Positions 3,424-22,959 of a stretch of DNA of 64,000 nt are shown here, piece after piece; the stretch's first letter is position 1, and each line of letters starts with the position of its first letter. The position numbers were made by a program, and so were the translations under genes. The stretch comes from Candidatus Woesebacteria bacterium (GTDB lineage: Bacteria > Patescibacteriota > Microgenomatia > UBA8517). The stretch lies in the NCBI GenBank assembly GCA_013374835.1, contig CP055307.1, positions 471,315 through 535,314 on the forward strand, written 5' to 3'. A model generated the notes under the pieces. The model was not told the origin of the DNA. It made no database searches and worked only from the letters and a program-made list of their open reading frames with translations.

Positions 3424-4640
3424 AAATTTTCAAATACAAGGCAAAAAACGCAGAAGGAAATGTAATCGAGGATACTATCCAGGCGGGTAGTCGAGAGGAA
3501 GCGGCGAGCGCGATCCGATCTCAAGGGCTTCAGGTTCTTACTGTGAAAAATCCGGACAAAATTGGCGGAAGCATGGTTTTTGGTGGTATTTCAGTTTCTG
3601 AAAAGAGTTCTTTTTGCAGATTCATGGCTACCATGCTTCGGTCAGGTATGTCTCTACCTGAGGCAGTGGATATTATACGCGAAGGATCAAAAAATAAAAG
3701 GTTTAATAAAATACTTTCGGATGTTTCTTTCCAGACACAGAAGGGTAAGAGCCTGTCTATGGTTTTATCCCAATATGAGAGGGATTTTGACCAGATTTTT
3801 TTAACCATGATTAAAGTAGGCGAGGAGTCTGGGACGCTTGATAAGGCCTTTGATTATTTGTCAAAGCAGCTTTCGGCAAGTCATGAATTAAAACAAAAGG
3901 TAACAGGATCTTTGATGTATCCTGCGGTAATAATTCTTGCAATGTTTGCCAACGGGCTTTTGATGATGCTTTTTGTACTGCCGAAGATATCTCAGGCTTT
4001 TTTGAAGCTTGAGGTCCCTTTACCGATTTACACAAAATGGCTTCTTATAGTAGGTGAGTTTTTTGGTAATAATGTGTTACTGGTTCTTGGTGTTTTCGGA
4101 GTGATTTTGGGCTTATTAGTTTTTCTTTTTATATTACAATCTACGCGAAACTTGATTATGAGGTTTATAACAAAACTTCCTATTGTGCGGGACATATCAA
4201 GACATATTGATGTAGCACGGTTTTCCAGGACGCTTTCTACACTTCTTCGGAGCGGTGTGCCGATACTTGAGGCTTTGGATGTTTCTGTCGGGACTTTGGG
4301 GCAGAGGTCTTTTAAGAGAGAGGCTAAAAAGTTCAGCGAAAGCGTTTCTAAGGGAGAGTCTTTATCTGATGTTCTTATAAAAAACAAAGATCTTTTTCCG
4401 CCTATAATGGTCCAGACAATAAAAGCAGGAGAGCAGTCGGGGAGCCTTGAGGATGTACTTGAAGAGCTAGCCGTTTTTTATGAAAAAGAGGTGGATTATA
4501 GTTTGAAGAGATTTACTTCCCTACTTGAGCCTGTTCTGATGCTTTTGATAGGCGCGGTTGTAGGAGTAATGGTGATTATGATGATTGCCCCGATTTATAG
4601 CATTATAGGTGGATTACAGTCTGCTATACAGCAGCCATGA
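3420..4640 (+). CDS. pilC: Type IV pilus platform protein PilC / GspF family
   Basis: 406 aa with two GspF-type repeats and 3 TM segments. Its start overlaps the pilB stop in an ATGA junction. Confidence 0.85.
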   Translation: MKIFKYKAKNAEGNVIEDTIQAGSREEAASAIRSQGLQVLTVKNPDKIGGSMVFGGISVSEKSSFCRFMATMLRSGMSLPEAVDIIREGSKNKRFNKILSDVSFQTQKGKSLSMVLSQYERDFDQIFLTMIKVGEESGTLDKAFDYLSKQLSASHELKQKVTGSLMYPAVIILAMFANGLLMMLFVLPKISQAFLKLEVPLPIYTKWLLIVGEFFGNNVLLVLGVFGVILGLLVFLFILQSTRNLIMRFITKLPIVRDISRHIDVARFSRTLSTLLRSGVPILEALDVSVGTLGQRSFKREAKKFSESVSKGESLSDVLIKNKDLFPPIMVQTIKAGEQSGSLEDVLEELAVFYEKEVDYSLKRFTSLLEPVLMLLIGAVVGVMVIMMIAPIYSIIGGLQSAIQQP

Positions 4641-5356: not shown

Positions 5357-5504
5357 TAGCCTCTTTTTAGGGAAATATTGGTATAAGTGTGGATTGATTT
5401 CAGAAGAGGATGAATGTTTTTGGTAATAATAAATTTTTAGCCAATCACCTTAGACATCATCTTGATTTATATTTATAAGAGGTGTAATTTTAAAAAAAGA
5501 AGTT

Positions 5505-5600
5505 GTGTTTAAGGAATCCGGTGAAAGTCCGGGGCTGTGCCGCAACCGTGAAAGACGGAAAACTAGCAACTTCATTAATCCCGAGCAGGATGGTGGTTAC
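5505..5600 (+). promoter_or_regulatory. Candidate cobalamin (B12) riboswitch aptamer
   Basis: AAGGAAUCC-GGUGAAAGUCC-GGGGCUGUGCCGCAACCGUGA fits the cobalamin-riboswitch core pattern GGUGnAAnUCC...CnGnCCCGCnACnGUnA with one mismatch. A degenerate B12-box-like GAGCAGGAUGGUGG overlaps the ATG at 5590. Confidence 0.4.
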
Positions 5601-12666: not shown

Positions 12667-12720
12667 AAAAAGAGAAGTACCTGCCCCAATGTGAGTAAGG
12701 ACTTCTCTTTTTTATTTGTT
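12667..12720 (+). terminator. Rho-independent terminator after pilA
   Basis: aaaagagaagt (12668-12678) pairs with acttctctttt (12701-12711), leaving a 22-nt loop, and is followed by TTTTTATTTGTTTTT. Confidence 0.6.
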
Positions 12721-13594: not shown

Positions 13595-15196
13595 ATGAAT
13601 AATATTTCGACTTTGAATATTAGAGATTTGTCAATTTTTAATTATATAGCAATAACAATTATTAATTTTATTGTATTTATTTTGTTGGTTACAGTCTTTT
13701 TGCACGGTAGATTTAAAGATAAAAAGAGCAAAACATTCGTTCTTATGAGTTTTTTTATGCTTGCTTGGGTGGATTTTGCTTTTTTGGCAAGAATTTTTGG
13801 GTTTTATCAAAATATTTCTTTAATTTTTTTGAGGATTGCCTGGATTGCCACACCCCCTTTGTTTTTTAGCACTTACTTAATATCCATTTTGATGGTTGAA
13901 AAAGATCGTGCGTATAAATATTTGACGCTAATTTTATTAATTATAACTTCCGTTTTAAGCTTTTTGACGGCTTTTACGGATTTAATTATTAGCGGTGTTA
14001 AATTTAAGGACGGGACGCTCGATATAATCTATGGGTATGGTTTTTTTCCCTTTTTGTTTCTTATTTTGGGGATTATGGTTTCTACGGTTGTGCCCATTCT
14101 TCGATCTCATATTAACAAAAGAACTAGATATTTTTTAGTGGGAGTTATTGTTTTTTATTTAGCGAATAGTGTTTTTAATATTGGATTACCGGTATTTAAA
14201 GGGTTTACAAGCTATTATTACTTAGGTGATTATTCTACTAGTATACTTCTTGGGTTTACGGCATATTCAATAATAAGACATAAATTATTTGATATTAAAG
14301 TCATTGGAGTTGAGGTTCTTACTGTTTTGATTTGGGCTGTTCTTTTGTCTGAGATATTTGTTGCTAAAGATTTTAATGAATTGCTGATAGATTTTGTTTT
14401 ATTGATTTTGACAGTAATATTTGGTTTTTTCTTAATAAGGAATGTTTTAAGAGAAGTTGAACAAAAGAAAGAGCTTGAGGGGTTGAATCGGAAACTTAAA
14501 GAGCTGGACCAGGTTAAGAATGAGTTTATTTCTGTTGCCGCGCATGAGCTTCGAGCGCCTTTGACTGCTGTTAAGGGATACTTGTCTATGATATTGGATG
14601 GGGATGCGGGTACGATAACAGCTCAAACAAGGGATTTTTTGCAGGATATTCAGCTTTCTACAGAGCGGATGATACGGCTTGTTAGTAATATGCTTGATGT
14701 GGGAAGGATTGAGGAAGGAAGGATCGCTTATAATCTTGAGGATGTTAATTTGACTGAAATAGTTAATACGGCTTACAGCGAGTTTAAACTGGAAGCAGAG
14801 AGAAAGAATCTTAAGTTTACGTTAGATATCCAAAGTAATGTGCGGGACCGTGTACATGTCGATCGTGATAGGCTTCATGAGGTGGTTGTTAATTTTCTAA
14901 GTAATGCTACTAAATATACAGAGACGGGTGGGATTACTATGAAACTATTTAATAAAGGTTTGAAAATCGTGAGGCTTGAGGTTATTGATACTGGAATGGG
15001 TATATCAAAGGAGGAACAAAAAAAACTTTTTAGGAAGTTTTATAGAGTTAAATCAAAAGTTGGTAAGACAATAGGCAGTGGACTGGGGCTTTATATCTCA
15101 AAGCTTTTAATTGAGAAGTTTGAGGGGAATATTGGTGTGGATTCTGAGCCTGGGAAGGGAAGTAATTTTTGGTTTGAACTGCCAGTTTCTTCTTGA
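13595..15196 (+). CDS. Sensor histidine kinase with a multi-TM N-terminal sensor domain
   Basis: 533 aa with about 7 N-terminal TM helices. H-box HELRAPLTAVKGY and HATPase_c N/G boxes (NAtKYT, DtGmGI, GsGLGL). Confidence 0.85.
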   Translation: MNNISTLNIRDLSIFNYIAITIINFIVFILLVTVFLHGRFKDKKSKTFVLMSFFMLAWVDFAFLARIFGFYQNISLIFLRIAWIATPPLFFSTYLISILMVEKDRAYKYLTLILLIITSVLSFLTAFTDLIISGVKFKDGTLDIIYGYGFFPFLFLILGIMVSTVVPILRSHINKRTRYFLVGVIVFYLANSVFNIGLPVFKGFTSYYYLGDYSTSILLGFTAYSIIRHKLFDIKVIGVEVLTVLIWAVLLSEIFVAKDFNELLIDFVLLILTVIFGFFLIRNVLREVEQKKELEGLNRKLKELDQVKNEFISVAAHELRAPLTAVKGYLSMILDGDAGTITAQTRDFLQDIQLSTERMIRLVSNMLDVGRIEEGRIAYNLEDVNLTEIVNTAYSEFKLEAERKNLKFTLDIQSNVRDRVHVDRDRLHEVVVNFLSNATKYTETGGITMKLFNKGLKIVRLEVIDTGMGISKEEQKKLFRKFYRVKSKVGKTIGSGLGLYISKLLIEKFEGNIGVDSEPGKGSNFWFELPVSS

Positions 15197-15480
15197 CTTC
15201 TTCTTCTGCTAATCTACTCCCCAAAGCGTGCAAAGAACGCTTTGCACTTTGAAACGGCTTGGGTTTTTAGGCCAAAACTTCAAAGGCCAATTTTCTAGCC
15301 TCATGCCTATCTAAGTCGGCTGGCTCCCAAAAGCGGGAGAAAAACAAGCCAAAAACCAAAAAAGGCCACTGAGTTAGAAAAAGCCTAAGAAGTAATGCCC
15401 CAAAAACCCCAAGGAAGCTCTCATTCTCCGCCCAATCTTGGGCAACCAGCTGGAAGGAATCCAGAAAGCAGGAGGGTCTG
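15193..15480 (+). repeat. Repeat B copy 1: conserved GC-rich ~290-bp leader element
   Basis: About 80-85% identical to 18331-18629 and 20159-20465. It begins TTGACT-(CTT)3CTG-CTAATCT and contains the palindrome GTGCAAAGaacgCTTTGCAC and the CTCCCaaaagcGGGAG hairpin. It ends in AGGAGG, 5 nt upstream of the small-ORF start. Confidence 0.8.
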
Positions 15481-15744
15481 ATGGGAGACAAAGATCCTCG
15501 AGACGAAACTCCTAAGGGATGGGAATGGCGTTTTGGTGGACCACCTCGAGATATGGCTCCTGGCCAGTACATGGAGCGAGCAGGTTCACTTGGGGGTGGA
15601 ATAGTAGTAGAGTACACTTCCGTCCCAACGCCAGATGGTGAAATGCTCATCCAGAAAACCTCCGAAATGCGTAACGGTCGTCCGATTGAAGCCGGACACG
15701 CTACTCGCCACGGTGGGAAGTGGTTTGACCGTTATCCGGAGTAA
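15481..15744 (+). CDS. Small GC-rich protein s1 (87 aa)
   Basis: Perfect SD AGGAGG, 5 nt, ATG. Gly/Pro-rich. Weak motif similarity to the s2 and 16301 ORFs. Confidence 0.4.
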   Translation: MGDKDPRDETPKGWEWRFGGPPRDMAPGQYMERAGSLGGGIVVEYTSVPTPDGEMLIQKTSEMRNGRPIEAGHATRHGGKWFDRYPE

Positions 15745-15781
15745 CAGGGGTTTCCAAAACTGAATAGTAGCCTATATTATA

Positions 15782-15859
15782 AAAGGGAATTGCTGCATTG
15801 TGCAGTTATCATGTTGGCTACCATGAGAAGATTCTACTATCTCAATTCCCTTTTTCTTT
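15782..15859 (+). terminator. Terminator-like long hairpin after s1
   Basis: aagggaattg (15782-15791) pairs with caattccctt (15843-15852) and is followed by TTTCTTT. The loop contains an inner hairpin ctgcattgtgcag. Confidence 0.35.
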
Positions 15860-15865
15860 AACACA

Positions 15866-16258
15866 ATGTGCAAAAGCAAAGAACAAACTTTAGCCAATCA
15901 ATTCATTTTAAAAGGGCTAAAAACACCGCTAGATCCAAAAAGATACTGGGCGCCTTTAGAAGATTCTGTGCTAATGTTGCTTGACGATTTCTTTAATAAA
16001 AAGATTGACACAAAAACAACAGGGAAGATAGGGAAGATTTTATATGAATTTCAATACTTTACATATGAACTTTATTGTGTAGATCCAGAACTTTTTAAGG
16101 TATTAGACTATCTAGTCGTTTTATATAATCCATCTGTCTTAAGGACTAAGGCTAAAAATAGTGTGAAGATTAGGCAAGCAGTAAAATTGCTTAAAAATTA
16201 TTACGAAAGCAAAAAATCGCGCGTTGATTTTTTGAGAGTTTATTTTAGTAAACAGTAA
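15866..16258 (+). CDS. Hypothetical protein, ~130-aa paralog family (member 1)
   Basis: 130 aa. Its C-terminal pattern (..YF.YEL....P......YI..) resembles that of the 16580 and 21788 ORFs. Confidence 0.45.
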   Translation: MCKSKEQTLANQFILKGLKTPLDPKRYWAPLEDSVLMLLDDFFNKKIDTKTTGKIGKILYEFQYFTYELYCVDPELFKVLDYLVVLYNPSVLRTKAKNSVKIRQAVKLLKNYYESKKSRVDFLRVYFSKQ

Positions 16259-16300
16259 AACAACCAAAGTGCTTTACTCTTTCTCATCCTTATTTAAGCA

Positions 16301-16474
16301 ATGCCTGACATTGGAGCAAGTACCCACTTTGATGAGGGAAAAGGTGGATCCGATCACCAAACTGTTTATGGTGATGGATGGCACCGCTCTTGGGACATCG
16401 ACCGAGACAACAACGTCACCCGCGATCACATCACAATCCATTGGGATAGTGGCAACCAAGTCCTGAAGGACTAG
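16301..16474 (+). CDS. Possible small GC-rich ORF (57 aa), a candidate fourth member of the s1/s2 small-protein family
   Basis: Hand translation gives MPDIGASTHFDEGKGGSDHQTVYGDGWHRSWDIDRDNNVTRDHITIHWDSGNQVLKD. It shares GW.(W/R)..(F/W)...RD and TR.H...W(F)D motifs with s1. All three frames are open here, so the coding call is uncertain. Confidence 0.2.
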   Translation: MPDIGASTHFDEGKGGSDHQTVYGDGWHRSWDIDRDNNVTRDHITIHWDSGNQVLKD

Positions 16475-16493
16475 CGCACTTTCCCTTTACCAA

Positions 16494-16552
16494 GGAAGGG
16501 TGCCTTTTGAGGTCACCAATGTGTGAGGATTAACCCACCCTTCCTTTTTTTA
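16494..16552 (+). terminator. Rho-independent terminator with a long loop
   Basis: GGAAGGGTG (16494-16502) pairs with CACCCTTCC (16536-16544) and is followed by TTTTTTTATTT. Confidence 0.45.
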
Positions 16553-16579
16553 TTTATAATATCAGTATTAATTAAATAC

Positions 16580-16912
16580 ATGGATTTTGAAGATTTATTT
16601 AATAAATACCTTGCAAATCAGCTTAAAAGAAAGATGACTGAACATGATGCAAGAGAGATATTTGAAAAAGCTGCAAAGGATTATTTTTCAAAAAAAATTA
16701 GTCTTGACTTTCTCATAGGCATAGCCACACAACTTTATTTTGAGCTTCTGAAGCCGTCTGATTATACAGGAGGGGTATTTCATAATTTAATTGAAAAAAC
16801 TGCGGATTTAGATTTTTATATTGAGGAATCTAAAAAGGGAGATAAAGAAGCAAAGAGGTACATCAAAGAATACTTTTCTGAATTAAGAGAATATATAAGT
16901 AAAGCCTCATAA
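16580..16912 (+). CDS. Hypothetical protein, ~130-aa paralog family (member 2)
   Basis: The ATG at 16580 (MDFEDLF) is preferred over the track GTG at 16523, which lies inside the terminator. Similar to 21788-22186 (DLDFYIEESKKGDKEAKRYIKEYFSELREYI vs SASDFVFFLQKNDSESKKRTKAIIKELKSYYI). Confidence 0.45.
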   Translation: MDFEDLFNKYLANQLKRKMTEHDAREIFEKAAKDYFSKKISLDFLIGIATQLYFELLKPSDYTGGVFHNLIEKTADLDFYIEESKKGDKEAKRYIKEYFSELREYISKAS

Positions 16913-16964
16913 TTCCTTGTAATTTGAATTTGTATTAACACTTGTTTTTCATCCAACTAAATAT

Positions 16965-17031
16965 AAACTCTGGGTGGAGAAAGAGTGGGTCCCCAGTCCT
17001 AGCAAATACCAATAGGTATTACTCTTTCTCC
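16965..17031 (+). repeat. Repeat A copy 1: conserved structured hairpin element
   Basis: About 90% identical to 18879-18944. An 11-bp stem GGAGAAAGAGT/ACTCTTTCTCC encloses a conserved ~35-nt loop with an inner AATACCaataGGTATT hairpin and a CUGGG...CCCAG pairing. Confidence 0.7.
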
Positions 17032-17064
17032 ATATTTGTCTTTGAAGTAAAATTAAAAGTCAAG

Positions 17065-18288
17065 ATGCTTTCTGATAATTTGAAAAATTTACATCAAGAA
17101 TATCTATTGTATTACAAAGAAAATGGCATTAAGCTTCTCCCCCATGAATTGCAAAAGAGAATTGCTTATACAGCAAAAATTGCAAGAGAAAACTACAAAA
17201 GATTAAAGCATCCTATTACTACCTCTTTAGAAAATTATATAGAAATTTGTGTCCATTTTAGTCTTTCACTAGATTTAGCGACAAGATCAGTTGAAACTGT
17301 TAATTTAACCAATCCGCCTTTTAACTTCCGTGCTGCGGCAGCATATTTTCTTGAGTTACCTTACGAGCTGCACCAGAGGATTGAAAAAGATCTATTCAAT
17401 ATTCACCCTGAAAAACGCGAAGAATTTTGGAAAGATCTTAATTTAAATATACCCAAGATAGAAAAGAAATTCATCGCTATGATTGAGGAAAGAAAACGCT
17501 TTGCACAAAGTAAAGGTTATGAGTCCCAGATTGATTTATCTTTCAAGAAATCTAAAATTCCACAATCAGTTCTAAATCGTTTTGTTGTAAATCAGGATAA
17601 ATTAATTAACTTTTGCAATCAAAATCTACCAAAGATCGGAAACAAACCAGATTGGTTTTATTCAAACTTCAGTAAAACTTGTTTTTTGTGCATGATACAA
17701 CCATTTCCCTTTAGCTCTCTAGAAAGTGTATTCGAAAAAGCGACGTTTATTCATCCAATTCTACAAAAGTATAATGAAAAAATAACTATTAAGCCTTCGG
17801 GAAGTTCGCACACCACGTATAAGGAAGGAACTGATAGCTTTGAGGTATATATTGAAAATGACCAAAACCTCCGTCATCAGATTGTTGATCTCGTCCACGA
17901 GTTGGGACATGTAATAAATAATCTTGAAGACCTAAACAAAAACAAGAATCCTTTCTTAAAAGGAAGATTCTTGGCTGAAAAAGAGGCTAATGAGATTGAA
18001 ATTGATTTTTATAAAAAGACATCAAGACTTCTTTATCAAGCTTCCTTTGGATGGATTCTTTGGTTGTTTAGAAGGACATTATTCGAGATAGAATTACACA
18101 AAAATCCACGACAAAACCTAAGCAAACTTTATGCCGATACTTATAACAAGTGTTTTAAAGGGGCAAATCAAAAATCAAACCCCACATACTTTATAGATAC
18201 TTATATCTCCCTGAGACCTTTTTCAACCCTACCCCATACGCTGGCATATTCTGAAGTAGTTACTAAACTAATAGAGAAGAAAAAGTAG
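17065..18288 (+). CDS. M3-like (oligoendopeptidase F-like) zinc metallopeptidase paralog 1, shortened
   Basis: HELGHVIN is an HExxH motif, with a Glu (AEKEANE) downstream. The PepF-like segment ERKRFAQSKGYESQIDLSF is present. ATG at 17065 preferred over the TTG at 16942, which reads through repeat A. About 30-35% identical to the 18975 paralog. Confidence 0.5.
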   Translation: MLSDNLKNLHQEYLLYYKENGIKLLPHELQKRIAYTAKIARENYKRLKHPITTSLENYIEICVHFSLSLDLATRSVETVNLTNPPFNFRAAAAYFLELPYELHQRIEKDLFNIHPEKREEFWKDLNLNIPKIEKKFIAMIEERKRFAQSKGYESQIDLSFKKSKIPQSVLNRFVVNQDKLINFCNQNLPKIGNKPDWFYSNFSKTCFLCMIQPFPFSSLESVFEKATFIHPILQKYNEKITIKPSGSSHTTYKEGTDSFEVYIENDQNLRHQIVDLVHELGHVINNLEDLNKNKNPFLKGRFLAEKEANEIEIDFYKKTSRLLYQASFGWILWLFRRTLFEIELHKNPRQNLSKLYADTYNKCFKGANQKSNPTYFIDTYISLRPFSTLPHTLAYSEVVTKLIEKKK

Positions 18289-18330
18289 TTGGAAATAAGT
18301 TTCTATGATTTGCTTTTTTCTGATTACAAC

Positions 18331-18629
18331 TTGACTTCTTCTTCTTCTGATAATCTACTCCCCAAAGCGTGCAAAAAACGTCTTGCACATTCACAGGCTT
18401 GGGTTTGAGGCTCAACTTCTAGGGAATCTTTTCTAACTTCACACCCTCAAAAACGGCTAACTCCCAAAAGCGGGAGGAAAAAACTAGCCAAATCTAAATG
18501 TGGTCAATGAGGTTAGAAAAAACCTGAAGAGGAAGAGCCAAAAAAAACCAAGGAAGCTCTCTTTTCCGCCCAATCCCGGGCAGCCCACTGGCGGGTTGCC
18601 AGATGAAATCTGAGAAAGGAGAGTCCCTA
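18331..18629 (+). repeat. Repeat B copy 2
   Basis: TTGACT-(CTT)4CTG-ATAATCT... Same conserved hairpins as copy 1. Ends with AAGGAGAG 7 nt before the ATG at 18630. Confidence 0.8.
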
Positions 18630-18857
18630 ATGGGCGATCCCGGAAGACTCATTCGGGCTAGTGATGTAAATCAAATCCCACCTGGTGCAATGGTGGTGGG
18701 AAGCTACATCATGTTCCCCGACGCCGAGGGTGGTCTGCACCCCACGCCACAAGAGCGCGTCTCGTCAGATATCCGACGGGAAAGCAATACGCGAACTATT
18801 ACTGGCGGAAACTGTGGCCAAGACCCCTCTTTGGTACCTAACGTATCAAAAAAGTGA
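18630..18857 (+). CDS. Small GC-rich protein s2 (75 aa from the SD-proximal ATG)
   Basis: Begins MGD like s1. VVGSYIMFPDAEGG resembles VVEYTSVPTPDGE in s1. Confidence 0.4.
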   Translation: MGDPGRLIRASDVNQIPPGAMVVGSYIMFPDAEGGLHPTPQERVSSDIRRESNTRTITGGNCGQDPSLVPNVSKK

Positions 18858-18878
18858 GTCTGGCCATGACAACTAAAT

Positions 18879-18944
18879 AAATTCTGGGAGGAGAAAGAGT
18901 GGGTCCCAGCCCTAGCAAATACCAATAGGTATTACTCTTTCTCC
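18879..18944 (+). repeat. Repeat A copy 2 (also serves as a terminator-like hairpin after s2)
   Basis: Same stem and loop as copy 1, followed by TTTTAAGTT. Confidence 0.7.
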
Positions 18945-18974
18945 TTTTAAGTTCCAAAATAGTAAAATAAGAAA

Positions 18975-20162
18975 GTGTACACCTACTTAAAAATCTACAG
19001 GGAAAGAGGACTCAATCCTGACATCAAATCGTTAATCAAACTTATATCTAGACAATCAAAACTTGCAAAAGATCAATACCAAAAACTAAGCACTCCCAAA
19101 ACAATGTCGGAAGGTCTTTATGTTCATGCTTGGGTAAGGAATGCTGTTATTCATGATATTTATGAAAATATAAAAATCATAAGACCAGAGCATGAATATA
19201 AAGCCTCAATAGACTTCTATTTAGCATTTCCTAACTCACTTCGTAAAAAGCTTAGAAAAGACATAAACAGTGCTACATTAGATCAAAGAGCAAAAGTGTG
19301 GAATAAATATAAGCTAGATTTTAAAAAAATAGAGAAAACATTCATAGCACTTACAATTCAAAGAAACACATGGGCTAAACAAAAAGGTTTTAAAAACTTT
19401 CTTGAAGAAAAGCTAAAACACTACAAAATACCAAGAAAAGATTATGAATTATTCAAGGCTCAAACCAACAATCTAATTAAATATTGTAATAGTCAACTGC
19501 CCAAAATAAAACTGCCATCAATTGTATTAACAGAATTTACCAAGCCTTGTTATCTTTGTCTTTCAACTAACTTTCCATTTACCAATCTTGAAGAAACAAT
19601 TAATTTTGTCTTTGGTGAATACGAAATTCTCCAGAAATTCAAAAAAAAGATAAAAATTAAATTCACTGATTATTCAGAAATGAGTTATAACGTTCAGGAC
19701 GATTCTTTTGAAATTAGTATAGAAAAAGATACTAACCTCCGTCACCAATCCCTAGCAATAATCCATGAACTAATCCATGTCGTAAATCACATTGAAAGTT
19801 ATAAAAGGGGATTCTTACCTTCCGAGAAAGGAAATTATTTTCAAGAAAAAGAAACACTAAAAAAAGAGATTCCGCTACTTAAAAAGATATCACCAGTTTT
19901 TTATAAATCCATCTTTAGTGAATTTCTTAAAGTCTTCCAACAAGTACTATTTGAAATAGAACTCTATAACAATCCTAATCAGAATTTAAGCAAGCTTTAT
20001 GCGGATGTTTACAACCTTTGCTATCCTCAGGCAAACCAAAAGCAAAATAGATCATTTATTCTGAATAAAGACATAGTAGAGCAACCCCTCTCAATCCTCC
20101 CCAACGCCATAGCCCAATCCATAGTCATCAAAAAATATTTGAAGCTGAACACATCCTCTTGA
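18975..20162 (+). CDS. M3-like zinc metallopeptidase paralog 2, shortened
   Basis: HELIHVVN is an HExxH motif. NPNQNLSKLYADVYN is conserved with paralog 1. A KQKGFKNFLEE segment is also present. Confidence 0.5.
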   Translation: MYTYLKIYRERGLNPDIKSLIKLISRQSKLAKDQYQKLSTPKTMSEGLYVHAWVRNAVIHDIYENIKIIRPEHEYKASIDFYLAFPNSLRKKLRKDINSATLDQRAKVWNKYKLDFKKIEKTFIALTIQRNTWAKQKGFKNFLEEKLKHYKIPRKDYELFKAQTNNLIKYCNSQLPKIKLPSIVLTEFTKPCYLCLSTNFPFTNLEETINFVFGEYEILQKFKKKIKIKFTDYSEMSYNVQDDSFEISIEKDTNLRHQSLAIIHELIHVVNHIESYKRGFLPSEKGNYFQEKETLKKEIPLLKKISPVFYKSIFSEFLKVFQQVLFEIELYNNPNQNLSKLYADVYNLCYPQANQKQNRSFILNKDIVEQPLSILPNAIAQSIVIKKYLKLNTSS

Positions 20163-20465
20163 CTTCTTCTTCTTCTTCTTCTGCTAACCTTGCTCCCAAA
20201 GCGTGCAAAGGACGCTTTGCACTTTGAAACGGCTTGGGTTTTTAGGCCAAAGCTTGGAGGTTTGTTTCTATCCCCATACCATCTATGATGAGCCGACTCC
20301 CAAAAGCGGGAGTAAAAACAGGCCAAACGCAAAAACGGTCACTGGGTAGAAAAAGCTAAAGAAACAAAGCCAAAAAACTCCAAGGAGGCTCTCATTCTCC
20401 GCCCAATCCCGGGCAACCAGCTGGAAGGAATCCGGTAAAGGGAGACAAAAAGACAGGAGGTTTCT
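20159..20465 (+). repeat. Repeat B copy 3
   Basis: TTGACT-(CTT)5CTG-CTAACCT, giving an optimal 17-nt spacer. Ends AGGAGG, 5 nt, then GTG. Confidence 0.8.
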
Positions 20466-20657
20466 GTGAATAACAGCAAGGGAAGCGGCGGAAAAGCAGG
20501 CAGTACTTCCATAACAGTAAAGCTGCCCATGGATCTGTCTCTCATAAAGGAACTTAACCAACAGTTCACTGTGGAAGAGGCTGCCAAGCAAACAAGCACC
20601 ACAAAACAGGAAGCAAAAGAAGCCTGGAAAGCCGCAAAGGAAGATAGTAGCAACTAG
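20466..20657 (+). CDS. Small protein s3 (63 aa, GTG start), Lys/Ala/Glu-rich and unrelated to s1/s2
   Basis: Perfect SD spacing. Contains a helical KEAWKAAKE-type C-terminal region. Confidence 0.35.
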   Translation: MNNSKGSGGKAGSTSITVKLPMDLSLIKELNQQFTVEEAAKQTSTTKQEAKEAWKAAKEDSSN

Positions 20658-20695
20658 GTTTCTGAACATTAGAGCTTCCTAATATCTCAACTCAT

Positions 20696-20760
20696 GGAAT
20701 GTCGGATTCCATAGCAGTCATAATAAGATATGCTAAGAGTCCGACATTCCAAATCATCTT
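20696..20760 (+). terminator. Long hairpin after s3
   Basis: GGAATGTCGGATTC (20696-20709) pairs with GAGTCCGACATTCC (20737-20750), a 14-bp stem with one G-U pair. The downstream U-tract is weak. Confidence 0.3.
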
Positions 20761-20785
20761 TCAAAAAATATATAATTAACCCAAT

Positions 20786-21118
20786 ATGAAACAAGCTACA
20801 ACTTTAAGTAAACAAGAAGAAGACAGACTGGTAGAAATTATAAGACTTGGACAAGAAAGTAACGCCACAGAAAAACAAAAGAAAGATTCTCTCAAAGCGA
20901 TGGAAAAACTGTTAATCTACTTACAACCATTGGTAGCAAACATTGCCTTAAAATACGCAGCAGGAACTATCCATCATGATGAACTAATTCGAATCGGAAA
21001 TATTGGAGTAAGAAAAGCAATACTTAAATATAATCCCAATAGAAACTTTAAGTTTTCGACTTACGCTTCGTGGTATATTAGAGCAGAAATTCACAAGAAA
21101 TTGGGTCTTCCTCTATAA
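20786..21118 (+). CDS. Truncated sigma-70 family protein (regions 1.2 through 2.3 only)
   Basis: LVANIALKYAAGTIHHDELIRIGNIGVRKAILKYNPNRNFKFSTYASWYIRAEI matches sigma70 region 2 (..FSTYATWWIRQAI..). The ORF stops after region 2.3, so regions 2.4, 3 and 4 are absent. Confidence 0.5.
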   Translation: MKQATTLSKQEEDRLVEIIRLGQESNATEKQKKDSLKAMEKLLIYLQPLVANIALKYAAGTIHHDELIRIGNIGVRKAILKYNPNRNFKFSTYASWYIRAEIHKKLGLPL

Positions 21119-21158
21119 TCTAGTTTTAAATTTCTCTGTTATCCATAATTGAATAAAT

Positions 21159-21641
21159 ATGGACGTTAAGCTTAAAAAATTATTTTATGAAGACAAGATC
21201 CTTCGTGTTTTAGGTCCTGAATGGAAAAGAGTAAAACGGTTTATAGGTGATGAGGAAGTTGAGGTAAGAAATAGTTTTTTCTTAGAGACAAAAGATGGGA
21301 TTAAAATTGAGTTTTTTATCTTATCCCCAGAAACATACCAAGAATGTTATTCGGTTAAAATAGAACAATATGTTCGCAGAAAAAGTAAAGAAAGTGGTGG
21401 TTACTACAGCGAAGTATCAACTATTCATTTTCAAGAAATAACAACTGTGAAGTATTTTTATAAATTGGGAATGATAGCAATGATTAGCAAGCAGAAGGAT
21501 TATTTTTCCGACCTCTGGTTATACAAAAGCGGAGCAGTCAGAATATCGGTTGCGCACCCCATATCCTTTTACAACAAACAAGACTTATGGACATATGATA
21601 TGGCCAACCGCGAAGGCGAAGAGGTTTTTACATTAGAATAA
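21159..21641 (+). CDS. Hypothetical protein
   Basis: 160-aa ORF with no recognised domain. Confidence 0.4.
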   Translation: MDVKLKKLFYEDKILRVLGPEWKRVKRFIGDEEVEVRNSFFLETKDGIKIEFFILSPETYQECYSVKIEQYVRRKSKESGGYYSEVSTIHFQEITTVKYFYKLGMIAMISKQKDYFSDLWLYKSGAVRISVAHPISFYNKQDLWTYDMANREGEEVFTLE

Positions 21642-21787: not shown

Positions 21788-22186
21788 ATGAGAGCTAAAA
21801 GAAAAACTAAAAGCAAATCTGGCTTTGAGAGATATGATTATGTCTTTTCAGGAATTAAACTATCAGAACCTCTTTCTATTAAACAAATTAAGTCAATTTT
21901 TTTGATATTACTTCATGATTATTTTCAAAATGAAATAGATGAATTTTTTCTAGAATCTTTAGCAGGTGATTTGTATTTTAACCTATCTGAATCACCAAAC
22001 TATATACAGGCAAAAGACCCTGAACTAAGTCTGGCTCTTGATAGCGCATCAGATTTTGTTTTCTTTCTTCAGAAGAATGATTCTGAAAGCAAGAAAAGAA
22101 CTAAAGCAATAATTAAGGAATTAAAAAGCTATTATATTAAAAATCGCAATGAAATAGAGCATTATTCTCATGATTCCAGTGATTGA
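21788..22186 (+). CDS. Hypothetical protein, ~130-aa paralog family (member 3)
   Basis: Similar to the 16580 and 15866 proteins. Confidence 0.45.
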   Translation: MRAKRKTKSKSGFERYDYVFSGIKLSEPLSIKQIKSIFLILLHDYFQNEIDEFFLESLAGDLYFNLSESPNYIQAKDPELSLALDSASDFVFFLQKNDSESKKRTKAIIKELKSYYIKNRNEIEHYSHDSSD

Positions 22187-22299: not shown

Positions 22300-22959
22300 C
22301 TAGAGATAATCTCTCCATTTATTATCCTGAATTATCTCTGGAATAGATTTTTTTTGTTTTACCAACCACGCTCGTAATTTTTGTTGGGCAGGATACCCCT
22401 TTTCTTCTGGATTAGTGAATACAGTTAAAGCTTCTTTAAGTGATTCAAATTTTTCTTTTCCCAACTCCTTTTTTAGATTCCCAAAATAATAATAAAACAT
22501 AAAATGATTAAGTTCATGAGTTAGAATTTGAAGCTGTCTTTCAGGAATTGCCCCTCCAAAAACCATAATCCATTTCTTTTCAAAATTGTAAGGACAAATT
22601 GGCAGAGAAGAAAGATATATTTTGATTTGTTTGAATGGGATCTTGCGCCCATATATTTTTTGTAGTCTATTTTCTATTTGGGAACCGTTTTTCACCCATG
22701 CCGATTTCAGCTCTTGAGCAACAACTGAATATTTTGCCTTTCTACTCTCTAAATTCTGGGAAAGGAAATCTTTAATTATATTTCTTGCTTGTTTTTCGCT
22801 TTTACTATTTTTAAGATCAATCCTAACCCTCTCCGGGAGAGCGCTAAAAAATTTATCTTGAAGATTGTCCCTTCCATGTTTGTACCACACAAACTTATAA
22901 ACAGATCTTAAATAATTCCATACATCAAGATCCAACGAATAACTTACTTTTATATCCAT
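22300..22959 (-). CDS. Hypothetical HExxH protein (possible zinc metallohydrolase)
   Basis: 219 aa; HExxH motif ILTHELNHFMF. Confidence 0.4.
   Translation of the reverse strand: MDIKVSYSLDLDVWNYLRSVYKFVWYKHGRDNLQDKFFSALPERVRIDLKNSKSEKQARNIIKDFLSQNLESRKAKYSVVAQELKSAWVKNGSQIENRLQKIYGRKIPFKQIKIYLSSLPICPYNFEKKWIMVFGGAIPERQLQILTHELNHFMFYYYFGNLKKELGKEKFESLKEALTVFTNPEEKGYPAQQKLRAWLVKQKKSIPEIIQDNKWRDYL

What the first reader, a model, noticed from the sequence alone, without database searches (positions are those of the whole stretch)
16965..17031. Second conserved structured element (repeat A, 2 copies) immediately upstream of each M3-like peptidase paralog
16965-17031 and 18879-18944 are about 90% identical. 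An 11-bp stem GGAGAAAGAGT/ACTCTTTCTCC encloses a conserved ~35-nt loop (GGGUCCC(C)AG(U/C)CCUAGCAAAUACCAAUAGGUAUU). The loop contains an inner AAUACC-aaua-GGUAUU hairpin and a CUGGG...CCCAG pairing. Copy 2 directly follows the s2 stop and is followed by UUUUAAGUU, so it can act as a terminator. Even so, the loop is conserved nearly base-for-base, which a plain terminator would not need. It could be a terminator/antiterminator riboregulator or a small RNA motif specific to this peptidase family.
Basis: seen in the sequence. Interest (0 to 1): 0.6.

Follow-up and report, generated by a model that had tools for sequence, protein, structure and literature searches.

The report
Pseudoknotted terminator-like RNA before peptidase genes
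The two repeats are copies of a previously uncatalogued folded RNA element, a long stem with a U-rich tail that encloses two small hairpins and a pseudoknot, which sits just upstream of an M3-like peptidase gene, usually right after a small-protein gene, in many uncultured Patescibacteria and probably controls how much transcription continues into the peptidase gene.

Summary
Copies at 16976-17031 and 18890-18944 share a perfect 11-bp stem. They are 94% identical, while the peptidase genes they precede are 36% identical in protein and 57% in DNA.

It is not a plain duplicated terminator. I found 18 distinct copies on 16 contigs of Patescibacteria (Microgenomates-type) genomes and metagenomes, and every one lies 24-51 nt upstream of a homologue of this peptidase. 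A DNA-only search gave 12 real hits, and all 12 have the peptidase downstream.

Comparative analysis supports four helices:
- P1, 11 bp.
- P2, GGG/CCC.
- P3, a hairpin of variable sequence.
- A 6-bp pseudoknot between the 5' flank and the P2 loop.

95-96% of cells are paired and 9-11 of 25 pairs show compensatory changes. A discrete U-rich tract follows P1, and a conserved box (ACAACNRAAUA) precedes the pseudoknot.

A sister architecture ("B") shares the box, the pseudoknot logic and the U-tract. It occupies the same operon position in other genomes and occurs once in the window (15749-15862).

No Rfam family matches, and no paper was found.

Best reading: a structured intrinsic terminator or attenuator at the peptidase gene, between the small-protein gene and the peptidase gene in most copies. 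Whether it senses anything is unknown.

The parts
16953..16963 (+). Copy A1: conserved single-stranded 5' box (CCAACTAAATA; family consensus ACAAC-N-RAAUA)
   Evidence: Conserved in alignments A3 and A5. The same box (AAACUGAAUAAG) precedes B-type elements. Coordinates.
16970..16974 (+). A1 pseudoknot 5' strand (CTGGG), pairs with 16992-16996
   Evidence: Pseudoknot helix: 2 of 6 pairs (MAFFT alignment) or 4 of 6 (model-fitted alignment) show compensatory changes. Coordinates.
16976..16986 (+). A1 P1 5' strand GGAGAAAGAGT
   Evidence: P1 is 98.9% paired across the aligned copies, with 2 covarying pairs.
16987..16999 (+). A1 P2 mini-hairpin (GGG / TCC). Its loop carries the pseudoknot 3' strand CCCAG (16992-16996).
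17005..17020 (+). A1 P3 hairpin AATACC-AATA-GGTATT
   Evidence: 4 of 5 P3 pairs show compensatory changes across genomes.
17021..17031 (+). A1 P1 3' strand ACTCTTTCTCC
17032..17043 (+). A1 T-rich tail (ATATTTGTCTTT), a weak U-tract
17065..18288 (+). M3-like (HExxH) peptidase paralogue 1, 407 aa. The true start is ATG 17065, with no Shine-Dalgarno sequence.
   Evidence: P0001 is 407 aa and 100% identical. AlphaFold model pLDDT 91.5. Foldseek top hits are Pz-peptidase A, oligoendopeptidase F and M32 carboxypeptidase.
18630..18857 (+). Small GC-rich protein gene s2 (75 aa from MGDPGR; C-terminal GGNCGQDP motif). Member of the small-protein family that precedes the element in most genomes.
   Evidence: The closest relative among those seen precedes the A copy at L020 10046-10146.
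18868..18879 (+). Copy A2: 5' box GACAACTAAATA
18884..18889 (+). A2 pseudoknot 5' strand CTGGGA, pairs with 18904-18909 (TCCCAG)
18890..18900 (+). A2 P1 5' strand
18901..18912 (+). A2 P2 mini-hairpin GGG-TCCCAG-CCC. The loop is the pseudoknot 3' strand.
18918..18933 (+). A2 P3 hairpin
18934..18944 (+). A2 P1 3' strand
18945..18953 (+). A2 U-tract TTTTAAGTT
18975..20162 (+). M3-like peptidase paralogue 2 (395 aa, GTG start, no Shine-Dalgarno sequence)
15749..15862 (+). Sister element of type B, after small ORF s1 and before a 130-aa gene. Box 15755-15766; pseudoknot GTAGCC 15767-15772 with GGCTAC 15816-15821; P1 15785-15792 with 15843-15850; then TTTTTCTTT.
   Evidence: Model R2 scores it at 81.8 bits. 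Pair counts. Coordinates.

Best explanation
Repeat A is a cis-acting structured RNA transcribed on the + strand. It sits between a small-protein gene and an M3-like oligopeptidase gene.

Architecture, 5' to 3':
- a conserved single-stranded box;
- a 6-nt strand that forms a pseudoknot with the loop of mini-hairpin P2;
- an 11-bp purine/pyrimidine helix, P1;
- P2 (GGG/CCC);
- a variable junction;
- hairpin P3, which abuts the P1 3' strand;
- a discrete U-rich tract.

Most likely mechanism: P1 plus the U-tract acts as an intrinsic terminator or attenuator whose usual 3-8-nt loop is replaced by a pre-folded, pseudoknot-locked three-way junction. Most transcripts that start upstream would end here. 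In most genomes these start at the promoter-like 5' end of the S leader and carry the strongly translated small ORF. The terminated transcript would have a compact, exonuclease-resistant 3' end. The peptidase gene has no Shine-Dalgarno sequence and no recognisable promoter of its own, so it would be expressed only from the fraction that reads through. The element would thus set, and possibly regulate, the ratio of small protein to peptidase.

Shown: existence, strand co-orientation with the genes, the four helices with covariation, the U-tract, the strict gene association, and absence from Rfam.

Inferred: termination itself, dependence of the peptidase on read-through, and any role of the box and pseudoknot in stability or factor binding.
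For: - Structure. On a structure-blind MAFFT alignment of 16 copies, 95.0% of cells are paired and 9 pairs have compensatory changes. Controls with the 3' partner slid by 1-3 columns give 43-57% paired. On the model-fitted alignment of 17 copies the values are 96.2%, 11 pairs and 33 cells, with 0 of 500 shuffles as high. Pseudoknot variants seen: CUGGGA/UCCCAG, CUGGAA/UUCCAG, CUGGCA/UGCCAG, CUGGUA/UACCAG, CCGACA/UGUCGG, AGCUGA/UCAGCU, CUAGU/ACUAG.
- Terminator hallmark. T fraction is 0.63 in the 9 nt after P1 and falls to 0.33 in the next 9 nt; for type B it is 0.72 falling to 0.36. Background is 0.31.
- Position. In most copies P1 begins 29-37 nt after the stop of a GC-rich small ORF of the GGCGQDP family, and P1 ends 24-51 nt before the peptidase start.
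- Association. A DNA-only metagenome scan gave 12 real hits, all with a peptidase homologue downstream. Both peptidase paralogues of L020 carry a copy, as in the window.
- Small ORFs have AGGAG-type Shine-Dalgarno sequences; the peptidase genes do not. No sigma-70-type promoter was found between P1 and the peptidase starts.
- The sense strand scores 46-99 bits and the antisense strand 21-28 bits.
- An ordinary terminator in this genome (12667-12712) has the same long purine-rich 5' arm and pyrimidine-rich 3' arm style.
- Type B elements occupy the same slot in other genomes and have even stronger covariation: 19 of 23 pairs.
Against: - No transcript data exist, so termination is untested.
- In 13 of 17 A copies the tract begins with A or G before the U run, and copy A1 has a weak tail. 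Efficiency may therefore be low.
- A terminator needs neither a conserved 5' box nor a pseudoknot, so part of the conservation is unexplained.
- Copy A1, and the A copy of L003, do not directly follow a small ORF. A1 follows a 129-aa gene and L003's follows a B element. The element is therefore tied to the peptidase gene rather than to the 3' end of the small ORF.
- G-U versus A-C counts do not settle the strand for type A (7 versus 10). The strand is inferred from gene co-orientation, the U-tract and the model scores.
- Eight of the 11 P1 pairs never vary. For the metagenome hits this was partly imposed by my search pattern.
Confidence: 0.55

Rival explanations
1. Ligand- or protein-responsive switch. 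The pseudoknotted three-way junction is an aptamer or protein-binding platform built into the terminator stem. Binding of a metabolite, the small protein, the peptidase or another factor changes how fast or how stably P1 forms. This would gate read-through into the peptidase gene.
For: - Multi-helix fold with a pseudoknot and strong covariation.
- Strict association with one gene family.
- A roughly 10-nt unpaired box is shared by types A and B although all their helices differ. This suggests a common trans-acting partner.
- The P1 sequence is invariant even in the copies that my DNA pattern did not select, i.e. those reached through the peptidase or the RNA model.
Against: - No conserved alternative (antiterminator) pairing was found.
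- The junction between P2 and P3 varies in length and sequence, unlike typical ligand pockets. Most conservation lies in the helices.
- An 11-bp P1 should form without help.
- No candidate ligand can be named. The gene context (peptide plus oligopeptidase) is not metabolic.
Confidence: 0.2
2. RNA processing and stability element. The A/U-rich box is an endonuclease site. The pseudoknot-locked fold then forms a protected 5' end for the peptidase mRNA, or a protected 3' end for the small-ORF mRNA. The two cistrons would thereby get different half-lives rather than different transcription.
For: - A conserved single-stranded A/U-rich box lies immediately 5' of a very stable fold.
- The 5' flank is sequestered in a pseudoknot. 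This resembles the 5'-end pseudoknot of flavivirus exonuclease-resistant RNAs; the resemblance is recalled from general knowledge and was not tested here.
- If the pseudoknot, P1 and P3 stack end to end, they would form a roughly 22-bp stack. This is inferred from their adjacency in the alignment.
Against: It does not explain the sharply delimited U-tract after P1. Nothing is known here about the RNases of these organisms. No data show processing.
Confidence: 0.15
3. Ordinary terminator, recently duplicated or homogenised by gene conversion. The loop conservation would be an accident of recent copying with no function beyond the stem.
For: - The two window copies are 94% identical, including loop bases that are not conserved across genomes.
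- The U-tract is present.
Against: - 18 distinct copies in genomes whose peptidases are only 33-53% identical keep P2, P3 and the pseudoknot through compensatory changes.
- In L020 the two copies have diverged but both remain paired: CUGGCA/UGCCAG versus CCGACA/UGUCGG.
- Three plain palindromes that matched the same DNA pattern (L022, L025, L030) lack all these features.
Confidence: 0.05
4. DNA-level or mobile element (a MITE/REP-like inverted repeat or a recombination site), or a self-cleaving ribozyme.
For: - The 11-bp terminal inverted repeat is superficially like a MITE.
- Y1-transposase genes lie within a few kb in L006 and L011.
- Ribozymes often sit in intergenic regions of mobile islands (general knowledge).
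Against: - All copies occupy the same syntenic slot. There are only two in 64 kb and none in unrelated contexts.
- The internal hairpins and the pseudoknot covary, which a protein-bound inverted repeat would not require.
- No Rfam ribozyme model matches, even at E <= 10.
- The order of helices does not match my recollection of the HDV-like, pistol or hatchet ribozymes.
- No copy was found in viral contigs.
Confidence: 0.05

Closest known systems
Intrinsic (Rho-independent) terminators, especially intercistronic attenuator hairpins between a precursor-peptide gene and its processing genes (for example in lantibiotic operons; general knowledge)
   Same: A stable stem is followed directly by a discrete U-tract. 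It lies just after a short, highly expressed ORF and before a processing-type enzyme gene. It is expected to set the stoichiometry of the two products.
   Different: The 'loop' is 33-35 nt (45-65 nt in type B) and folds into conserved hairpins. One of their loops pairs with the 5' flank as a pseudoknot. A conserved single-stranded box precedes the element. The P1 sequence is almost invariant.
Transcriptional riboswitches and other orphan cis-regulatory RNA motifs found by comparative genomics (Rfam-type motifs)
   Same: A multi-helix fold with a pseudoknot, supported by covariation. It lies in the 5' region of one gene family and is linked to a terminator-like stem.
   Different: There is no separate expression platform and no alternative pairing. 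The junction nucleotides are poorly conserved. No ligand can be suggested. No Rfam 15 model matches.
Flavivirus exonuclease-resistant RNAs (xrRNA); compared by recalled topology only
   Same: A three-way junction closed by a long helix, in which the 5' flanking strand is captured in a pseudoknot.
   Different: Here the 5' strand pairs with a hairpin loop, not with the junction. There is no second pseudoknot to 3' sequence and no evidence of a ring fold. The context is bacterial, and a U-tract follows.
Type B element of the same loci (this work; window 15749-15862, L003, L006, L009, L014, L015, L017, L020, L037, L039)
   Same: Same 5' box (AAACUGAAUAAG). The 5' flank forms a pseudoknot with a hairpin loop. 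A long purine/pyrimidine P1 is followed by a U-tract. It occupies the same slot after GC-rich small ORFs, and in L006, L014, L015, L037 and L039 it lies directly before the peptidase.
   Different: P1 is 8-9 bp with a different sequence. There are two or three inner hairpins. The pseudoknot goes to the second hairpin. Type B also precedes genes for roughly 100-180-aa proteins (many helical, about 125 aa), not only peptidases.

Membership tests
Intrinsic terminator | Stable stem (typically 5-14 bp, G+C-containing) | tested here: met
   P1 is 11 bp and 98.9% paired across the aligned copies. MFE is -25.6 and -30.5 kcal/mol for the two window copies.
Intrinsic terminator | Short apical loop (about 3-8 nt) | tested here: not met
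   33-35 nt are enclosed and fold into P2, P3 and a pseudoknot. The simple terminator scan does not report either copy.
Intrinsic terminator | U-tract immediately 3' of the stem | tested here: met
   T fraction is 0.63 in nt 1-9 after P1 and 0.33 in nt 10-18. 15 of 17 copies have at least 5 T in 9 nt. The tract often starts with A or G, and copy A1 is weak.
Intrinsic terminator | Causes transcript release | not testable with these tools
   No transcriptome or biochemical data are available.
Riboswitch | Conserved, covarying aptamer fold in the 5' region of a coherent gene set | tested here: met
Riboswitch | Highly conserved unpaired nucleotides forming a pocket | tested here: inconclusive
   The 5' box is conserved, but the P2/P3 junction varies in length and sequence.
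Riboswitch | Mutually exclusive expression-platform structure | tested here: not met
   Inspection of the alignments found no conserved alternative pairing for either P1 strand. This was a manual check, not an exhaustive computation.
Riboswitch | Specific ligand binding | not testable with these tools
   Needs in-line probing or ITC.
Any Rfam 15 family (including hammerhead, twister, pistol, hatchet and HDV-like ribozymes) | Match to the family covariance model | tested here: not met
   At gathering scores the only hit in the window is AdoCbl-II at 5500-5572. At E <= 10 over 15000-21500 nothing overlaps A, B or S.
MITE / REP-like repeat | Many dispersed copies in unrelated contexts | tested here: not met
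   There are two copies in 64 kb, and all 18 copies lie in the same syntenic slot.
M3/M32/M2 (neurolysin-like) oligopeptidase fold, for the downstream gene | HExxH motif and the overall helical two-lobed fold | tested here: met
   The H-E-x-x-H residues are invariant in the alignment (H278, E279, H282). The AlphaFold model has pLDDT 91.5. Foldseek hits are 3ahm, 2h1n and 1k9x with E about 4e-4 and TM about 0.5. No sequence-level match to Pfam M3 or to the PDB, so this is fold-level resemblance only.

The most novel reading that the evidence does not exclude
A and B are two classes of a new regulatory RNA system in Patescibacteria. A pseudoknot-locked sensor domain is built directly into a terminator stem and is addressed by a shared 5' box. 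It would respond to a trans factor: a small molecule, the small GGCGQDP protein or its processed peptide, the peptidase, or an island-encoded sigma-like protein. That response would gate expression of partner genes (peptidase or helical protein) in peptide-processing or toxin-immunity-like modules.
Probability: 0.22. Interest if true: 0.8.

Novelty: new variant of a known kind. Interest (0 to 1): 0.62.

Why it matters
Almost nothing is known about gene regulation in the uncultured, reduced-genome Patescibacteria (CPR).

This element gives a well-supported RNA fold: four helices including a pseudoknot, a sister class with even stronger covariation, and a conserved upstream leader (S). All are tied to one two-gene module, a small GC-rich protein followed by an M3-like oligopeptidase.

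It offers a concrete, small (about 90 nt) test object for three questions:
- How do these organisms terminate or attenuate transcription?
- Can a terminator stem host a folded domain?
- What is the small-protein/peptidase module for?

If the fold binds a factor, it would be a new regulatory RNA class. If not, it is still an unusual terminator architecture worth adding to RNA family databases.

Tried and rejected
- Rfam at gathering thresholds and at E <= 10 on 15000-21500: nothing overlaps A, B or S.
- tRNA/tmRNA scan: none.
- Consensus promoter and terminator scan of 15000-21500: no more sites than in shuffles, and neither A copy is reported.
- Viral contigs, A pattern: 0 hits. Viral contigs, B pattern: one hit (L040), which on reading is a chance match without the fold.
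- Three of the 15 metagenome pattern hits (L022, L025, L030) are plain perfect palindromes and were rejected as chance.
- PDB sequence search with the peptidase profile: no hit. Pfam: only sub-threshold M78.
- Coding mini-ORF starting at the GUG inside P1: rejected, because frame and length are not conserved and the two window copies differ by a 1-nt indel.
- The 5' box as a sigma-70 -10 or -35 element: the spacing and key bases do not fit. Considered by eye and left unproven.
- A U-rich tail folding back as a triplex on the purine strand of P1: no consistent pattern.
- Pairing of the box with the tail: cannot be told from chance in A/T-rich sequence.
- G-U versus A-C counts as a strand test: not decisive for A (7 versus 10), mildly favourable for B (11 versus 5).
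- A window-wide scan for 'long stem, large loop, T tail' was dominated by low-complexity chance hits: 20 observed versus 4-11 per shuffle.
- Literature searches found no description of this motif.

Full report
**1. The observation**

Reading 16700-19200 shows the two copies exactly as described. The pattern GGAGAAAGAGT-N(25-50)-ACTCTTTCTCC occurs only at 16976-17031 and 18890-18944, with none expected in shuffles. The loop 23-mer also occurs only there.

- Over 16963-17031 versus 18877-18944 the copies are 94.2% identical: three substitutions and one 1-nt indel.
- The 100 nt upstream are 49% identical. The two downstream genes are 57% identical in DNA and 36% in protein.
- Similarity also covers an upstream box (CAACTAAATA) and a short AGTAAAAT block before the start codons.
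- Single-sequence folding gives the 11-bp outer stem plus two inner hairpins: -25.6 kcal/mol (z = -2.7) and -30.5 kcal/mol (z = -4.4).
- Copy 1 lies inside a mechanical ORF (16942-18288). The database protein is 407 aa starting at ATG 17065, and the indel between the copies breaks the frame. The repeat is therefore non-coding.

**2. Surroundings**

The window is A/T-rich (about 35% G+C). Its peptidase's closest named relative is from a Candidatus Blackburnbacteria MAG, and the other named relatives are Patescibacteria.

The region 15200-21000 is a set of modules:
- Each starts with a roughly 270-nt G+C-rich repeat, 'S'. There are three copies: 15197-, 18338- and 20172-.
- Each S is followed by a small G+C-rich ORF with a strong Shine-Dalgarno sequence (s1, s2, s3).
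- Then comes a large stem-loop.
- Then comes an A/T-rich partner gene without a Shine-Dalgarno sequence.

The partner genes after A1 and A2 are HExxH proteins. Pfam gives only a sub-threshold M78 hit and the PDB has no sequence relative. A confident AlphaFold model (pLDDT 91.5) matches Pz-peptidase A, oligoendopeptidase F (M3), M32 carboxypeptidases and ACE, with Foldseek E about 4e-4 and TM about 0.5. 'M3-like' is therefore right at the fold level.

**3. Related sequences**

The peptidase family is rare: 9 hits with the single sequence, and 12 listed (three of them new) with a profile, among 5.8 billion clusters.

Reading the DNA upstream of the homologues showed two things. First, nearly all are preceded by a 60-90-aa G+C-rich ORF with a conserved C-terminal G-G-C-G-Q-D-P-x-N motif, encoded with varying synonymous codons. 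Second, between that ORF and the peptidase lies one of two elements:
- the same element as repeat A (L001, L003, L011, L012); or
- a second architecture, 'B' (L003, L006, L014, L015; L009 also carries a B element, there before a 123-aa gene).

A scan of metagenome contigs with a DNA pattern for P1 alone gave 15 loci.
- Three are perfect palindromes and count as chance hits.
- Twelve have the complete element.
- tblastn shows a peptidase homologue starting just downstream in 11 of the 12. The twelfth (L018) is confirmed through its genome copy, L035.

A covariance model (R1) found two further copies. One lies before the second peptidase paralogue of L020. The other is in a Patescibacteria MAG, L036.

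In total there are 18 distinct copies on 16 contigs, all 24-51 nt upstream of this peptidase. Sense-strand scores are 46-99 bits; antisense scores are 21-28 bits. Viral contigs contain none.

**4. Structure**

On the structure-blind MAFFT alignment A3 (16 copies):
- The proposed structure of P1, P2, P3 and the pseudoknot is 95.0% paired.
- Nine of 25 pairs have compensatory changes.
- Controls with the 3' partner slid by 1-3 columns give 43-57% paired and 0-4 such pairs.

On the model-fitted alignment A5 (17 copies):
- 96.2% of cells are paired, 11 pairs and 33 cells carry compensatory changes, and 0 of 500 shuffles reach these values.

The pseudoknot was not part of either the search pattern or the model, so it is an independent test. 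Its central position takes all four Watson-Crick combinations. One copy changes five of the six positions on both strands (CCGACA/UGUCGG). Others have AGCUGA/UCAGCU and CUAGU/ACUAG.

P3 keeps its pairing with quite different sequences: AAUACC/GGUAUU, AAAGC/GCUUU, AAGG/CCUU, AAUGC/GCAUU.

P1 is nearly invariant in sequence (8 of 11 pairs never vary). This holds even in copies not selected by my pattern, and the two variable pairs covary.

Cross-genome comparison therefore shows that loop structure is conserved, not loop sequence. The near-identity of the two window copies is best explained by recent copying or gene conversion on top of that selection. In L020 the two copies have diverged while staying paired.

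**5. Terminator hallmark**

- The 9 nt after P1 are 63% T and the next 9 nt are 33% T. For type B the figures are 72% and 36%. Background is 31%.
- This sharply delimited U-tract after a stable stem is the defining feature of intrinsic terminators.
- A conventional terminator elsewhere in the window (12667-12712, after a pilin-like gene) has the same long purine-rich 5' arm and pyrimidine-rich 3' arm.
- P1 starts 29-37 nt after the small-ORF stop in most copies.
- The peptidase genes lack Shine-Dalgarno sequences, and no sigma-70-type promoter is detected between P1 and their starts. They probably depend on read-through.

**6. The sister class B**

Model R2 finds 14 copies, including window 15749-15862, which lies after s1 and before a 130-aa gene.

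- Covariation is very strong: 93.7% paired and 19 of 23 pairs with compensatory changes. The pseudoknot appears as GUGGUA/UACCAC, GUAGCC/GGCUAC and GUGACU/AGUCAC.
- B shares four things with A: the 5' box (AAACUGAAUAAG), a pseudoknot between the 5' flank and a hairpin loop, a purine/pyrimidine P1, and the U-tract.
- B has different helices and two or three inner hairpins.
- Most B copies follow G+C-rich small ORFs (G+C 0.48-0.57, against about 0.3 for partner genes).
- B precedes either the peptidase (L006, L014, L015, L037, L039) or proteins of roughly 100-180 aa, many helical and about 125 aa.

Two classes with unrelated helices share one unpaired box. That argues for a common trans-acting partner or a common processing step. 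It is the main feature that the plain terminator model does not explain.

**7. Interpretation**

The best-supported reading is a structured intrinsic terminator or attenuator whose loop is replaced by a pre-folded, pseudoknot-locked junction. It would separate a highly expressed small-protein message from a weakly expressed peptidase message (confidence 0.55).

Rivals:
- Factor- or ligand-responsive switch (0.20). No alternative pairing was found and the junction is variable.
- Processing or stability element (0.15). It does not explain the U-tract.
- Accidental duplicate of a simple terminator (0.05). Contradicted by the covariation.
- DNA-level, mobile or ribozyme element (0.05). Contradicted by synteny, by the lack of any Rfam ribozyme match, and by the order of helices.

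Nothing about function is shown directly. There are no transcript data.

**8. Novelty**

No Rfam 15 family matches at any threshold tried. Five literature queries found no description.

I file it as a new variant of a known kind: a terminator or cis-regulatory leader with an embedded pseudoknotted junction. It is restricted, as far as sampled, to Microgenomates-type Patescibacteria.

Interest is 0.62. The structural evidence is solid and the architecture is unusual. The distribution is narrow and the function is untested.

Noticed in passing
window 15749-15862 (+): Type B sister element after small ORF s1 and before a 130-aa gene. It has the box CAAAACTGAATA, a pseudoknot GTAGCC/GGCTAC, an 8-bp P1 and the tail TTTTTCTTT. 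Fourteen copies across loci show 19 of 23 covarying pairs.
   Followed up: yes
window 15197-15480, 18338-18611, 20172-20465 (+): The 'S' repeat is a roughly 270-nt G+C-rich leader upstream of each small ORF. It is 70-80% identical at the DNA level in L020 (3 copies), L026 and L028, whose peptidases are only 33-38% identical to peptidase 1 (one L020 paralogue is 53% to peptidase 2). RNAalifold predicts 45 pairs, 14 of them with compensatory changes. No Rfam match. It is probably a second new structured RNA, a 5' UTR.
   Followed up: partly
window 15191-15215, 18330-18356, 20159-20191; also L020, L026, L028: Every S copy begins CTTGA-(CTT)n-CTG-CTAATCT, with n = 3, 4 or 5. TTGACT resembles a -35 element and TGcTAATCT an extended -10. 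Only n = 5 gives a 17-nt spacer. This could be a promoter whose strength varies through slippage of the trinucleotide repeat. In S1 and S3 the stop codon of the upstream gene lies inside TTGACT.
   Followed up: partly
window 18630-18857; L001, L003, L006, L011, L012, L014, L017, L019, L020, L023, L026-L029, L036, L039: A family of 60-90-aa G+C-rich small proteins with the C-terminal motif G-G-C-G-Q-D-P-x-N, always just upstream of the M3-like peptidase. They may be substrates, precursors or partners of the peptidase. The two window members tested (s1, s2) have no Pfam match.
   Followed up: partly
window 16301-16475 (+), then 16492-16546: An unlisted 57-aa ORF (MPDIGASTHFDEGKGGSDHQTVYGDGWHRSWDIDRD...) belongs to a second small-protein family, YGDGWHxSW, also present in L020 and related to ORFs in L001 and L032. 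It is followed by a 9-11-bp stem with a 33-nt loop and TTTTTTT, and then by a 129-aa gene.
   Followed up: partly
window 15866-16258, 16523-16912, 21788-22186 (+): Three ORFs of about 130 aa with no Pfam match that look like helical paralogues by eye. Similar proteins follow small ORFs and B elements in L001 and L020, and one directly precedes the peptidase, with no RNA element, in L033. This resembles the layout of toxin/immunity or peptide/partner modules.
   Followed up: no
window 20695-20752 (+): After s3 there is a long hairpin (GGAAUGUCGGAUUCC...; -33.8 kcal/mol, z = -7.2) without a clear U-tract. A possible ATATCT/AGATAT pairing with the 5' flank was seen by eye only.
   Followed up: partly
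window 20786-21118 (+): A 110-aa ORF with only sigma-70 region 2 (Pfam E = 3.6e-11) lies inside the island. It is a candidate trans factor for the shared box, but this was not tested.
   Followed up: no
window 22300-22959 (-): A 219-aa ORF with an HELNH motif and no Pfam match. It may be another metallopeptidase-like protein in the island.
   Followed up: no
window 5500-5572 (+): An AdoCbl-II (cobalamin) riboswitch aptamer, 38.7 bits, above its gathering score.
   Followed up: no
window 12667-12712 (+): A conventional-looking terminator after a pilin-like gene. It has a 12-14-bp purine-rich/pyrimidine-rich stem, a 22-nt loop and a T-tract. This suggests that long R/Y stems are the house style for terminators in this genome.
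   Followed up: partly
L032 ~3825-3900: Upstream of the peptidase homologue in this Patescibacteria MAG there is a third architecture: P1 AAGAAAGAGC/GCTCTTTCTT enclosing three hairpins. Neither model detects it there.
   Followed up: no
L033 2016-2346: This is a peptidase homologue with no A or B element upstream. It follows a helical-protein gene directly, so the element is not obligatory for the gene family.
   Followed up: partly
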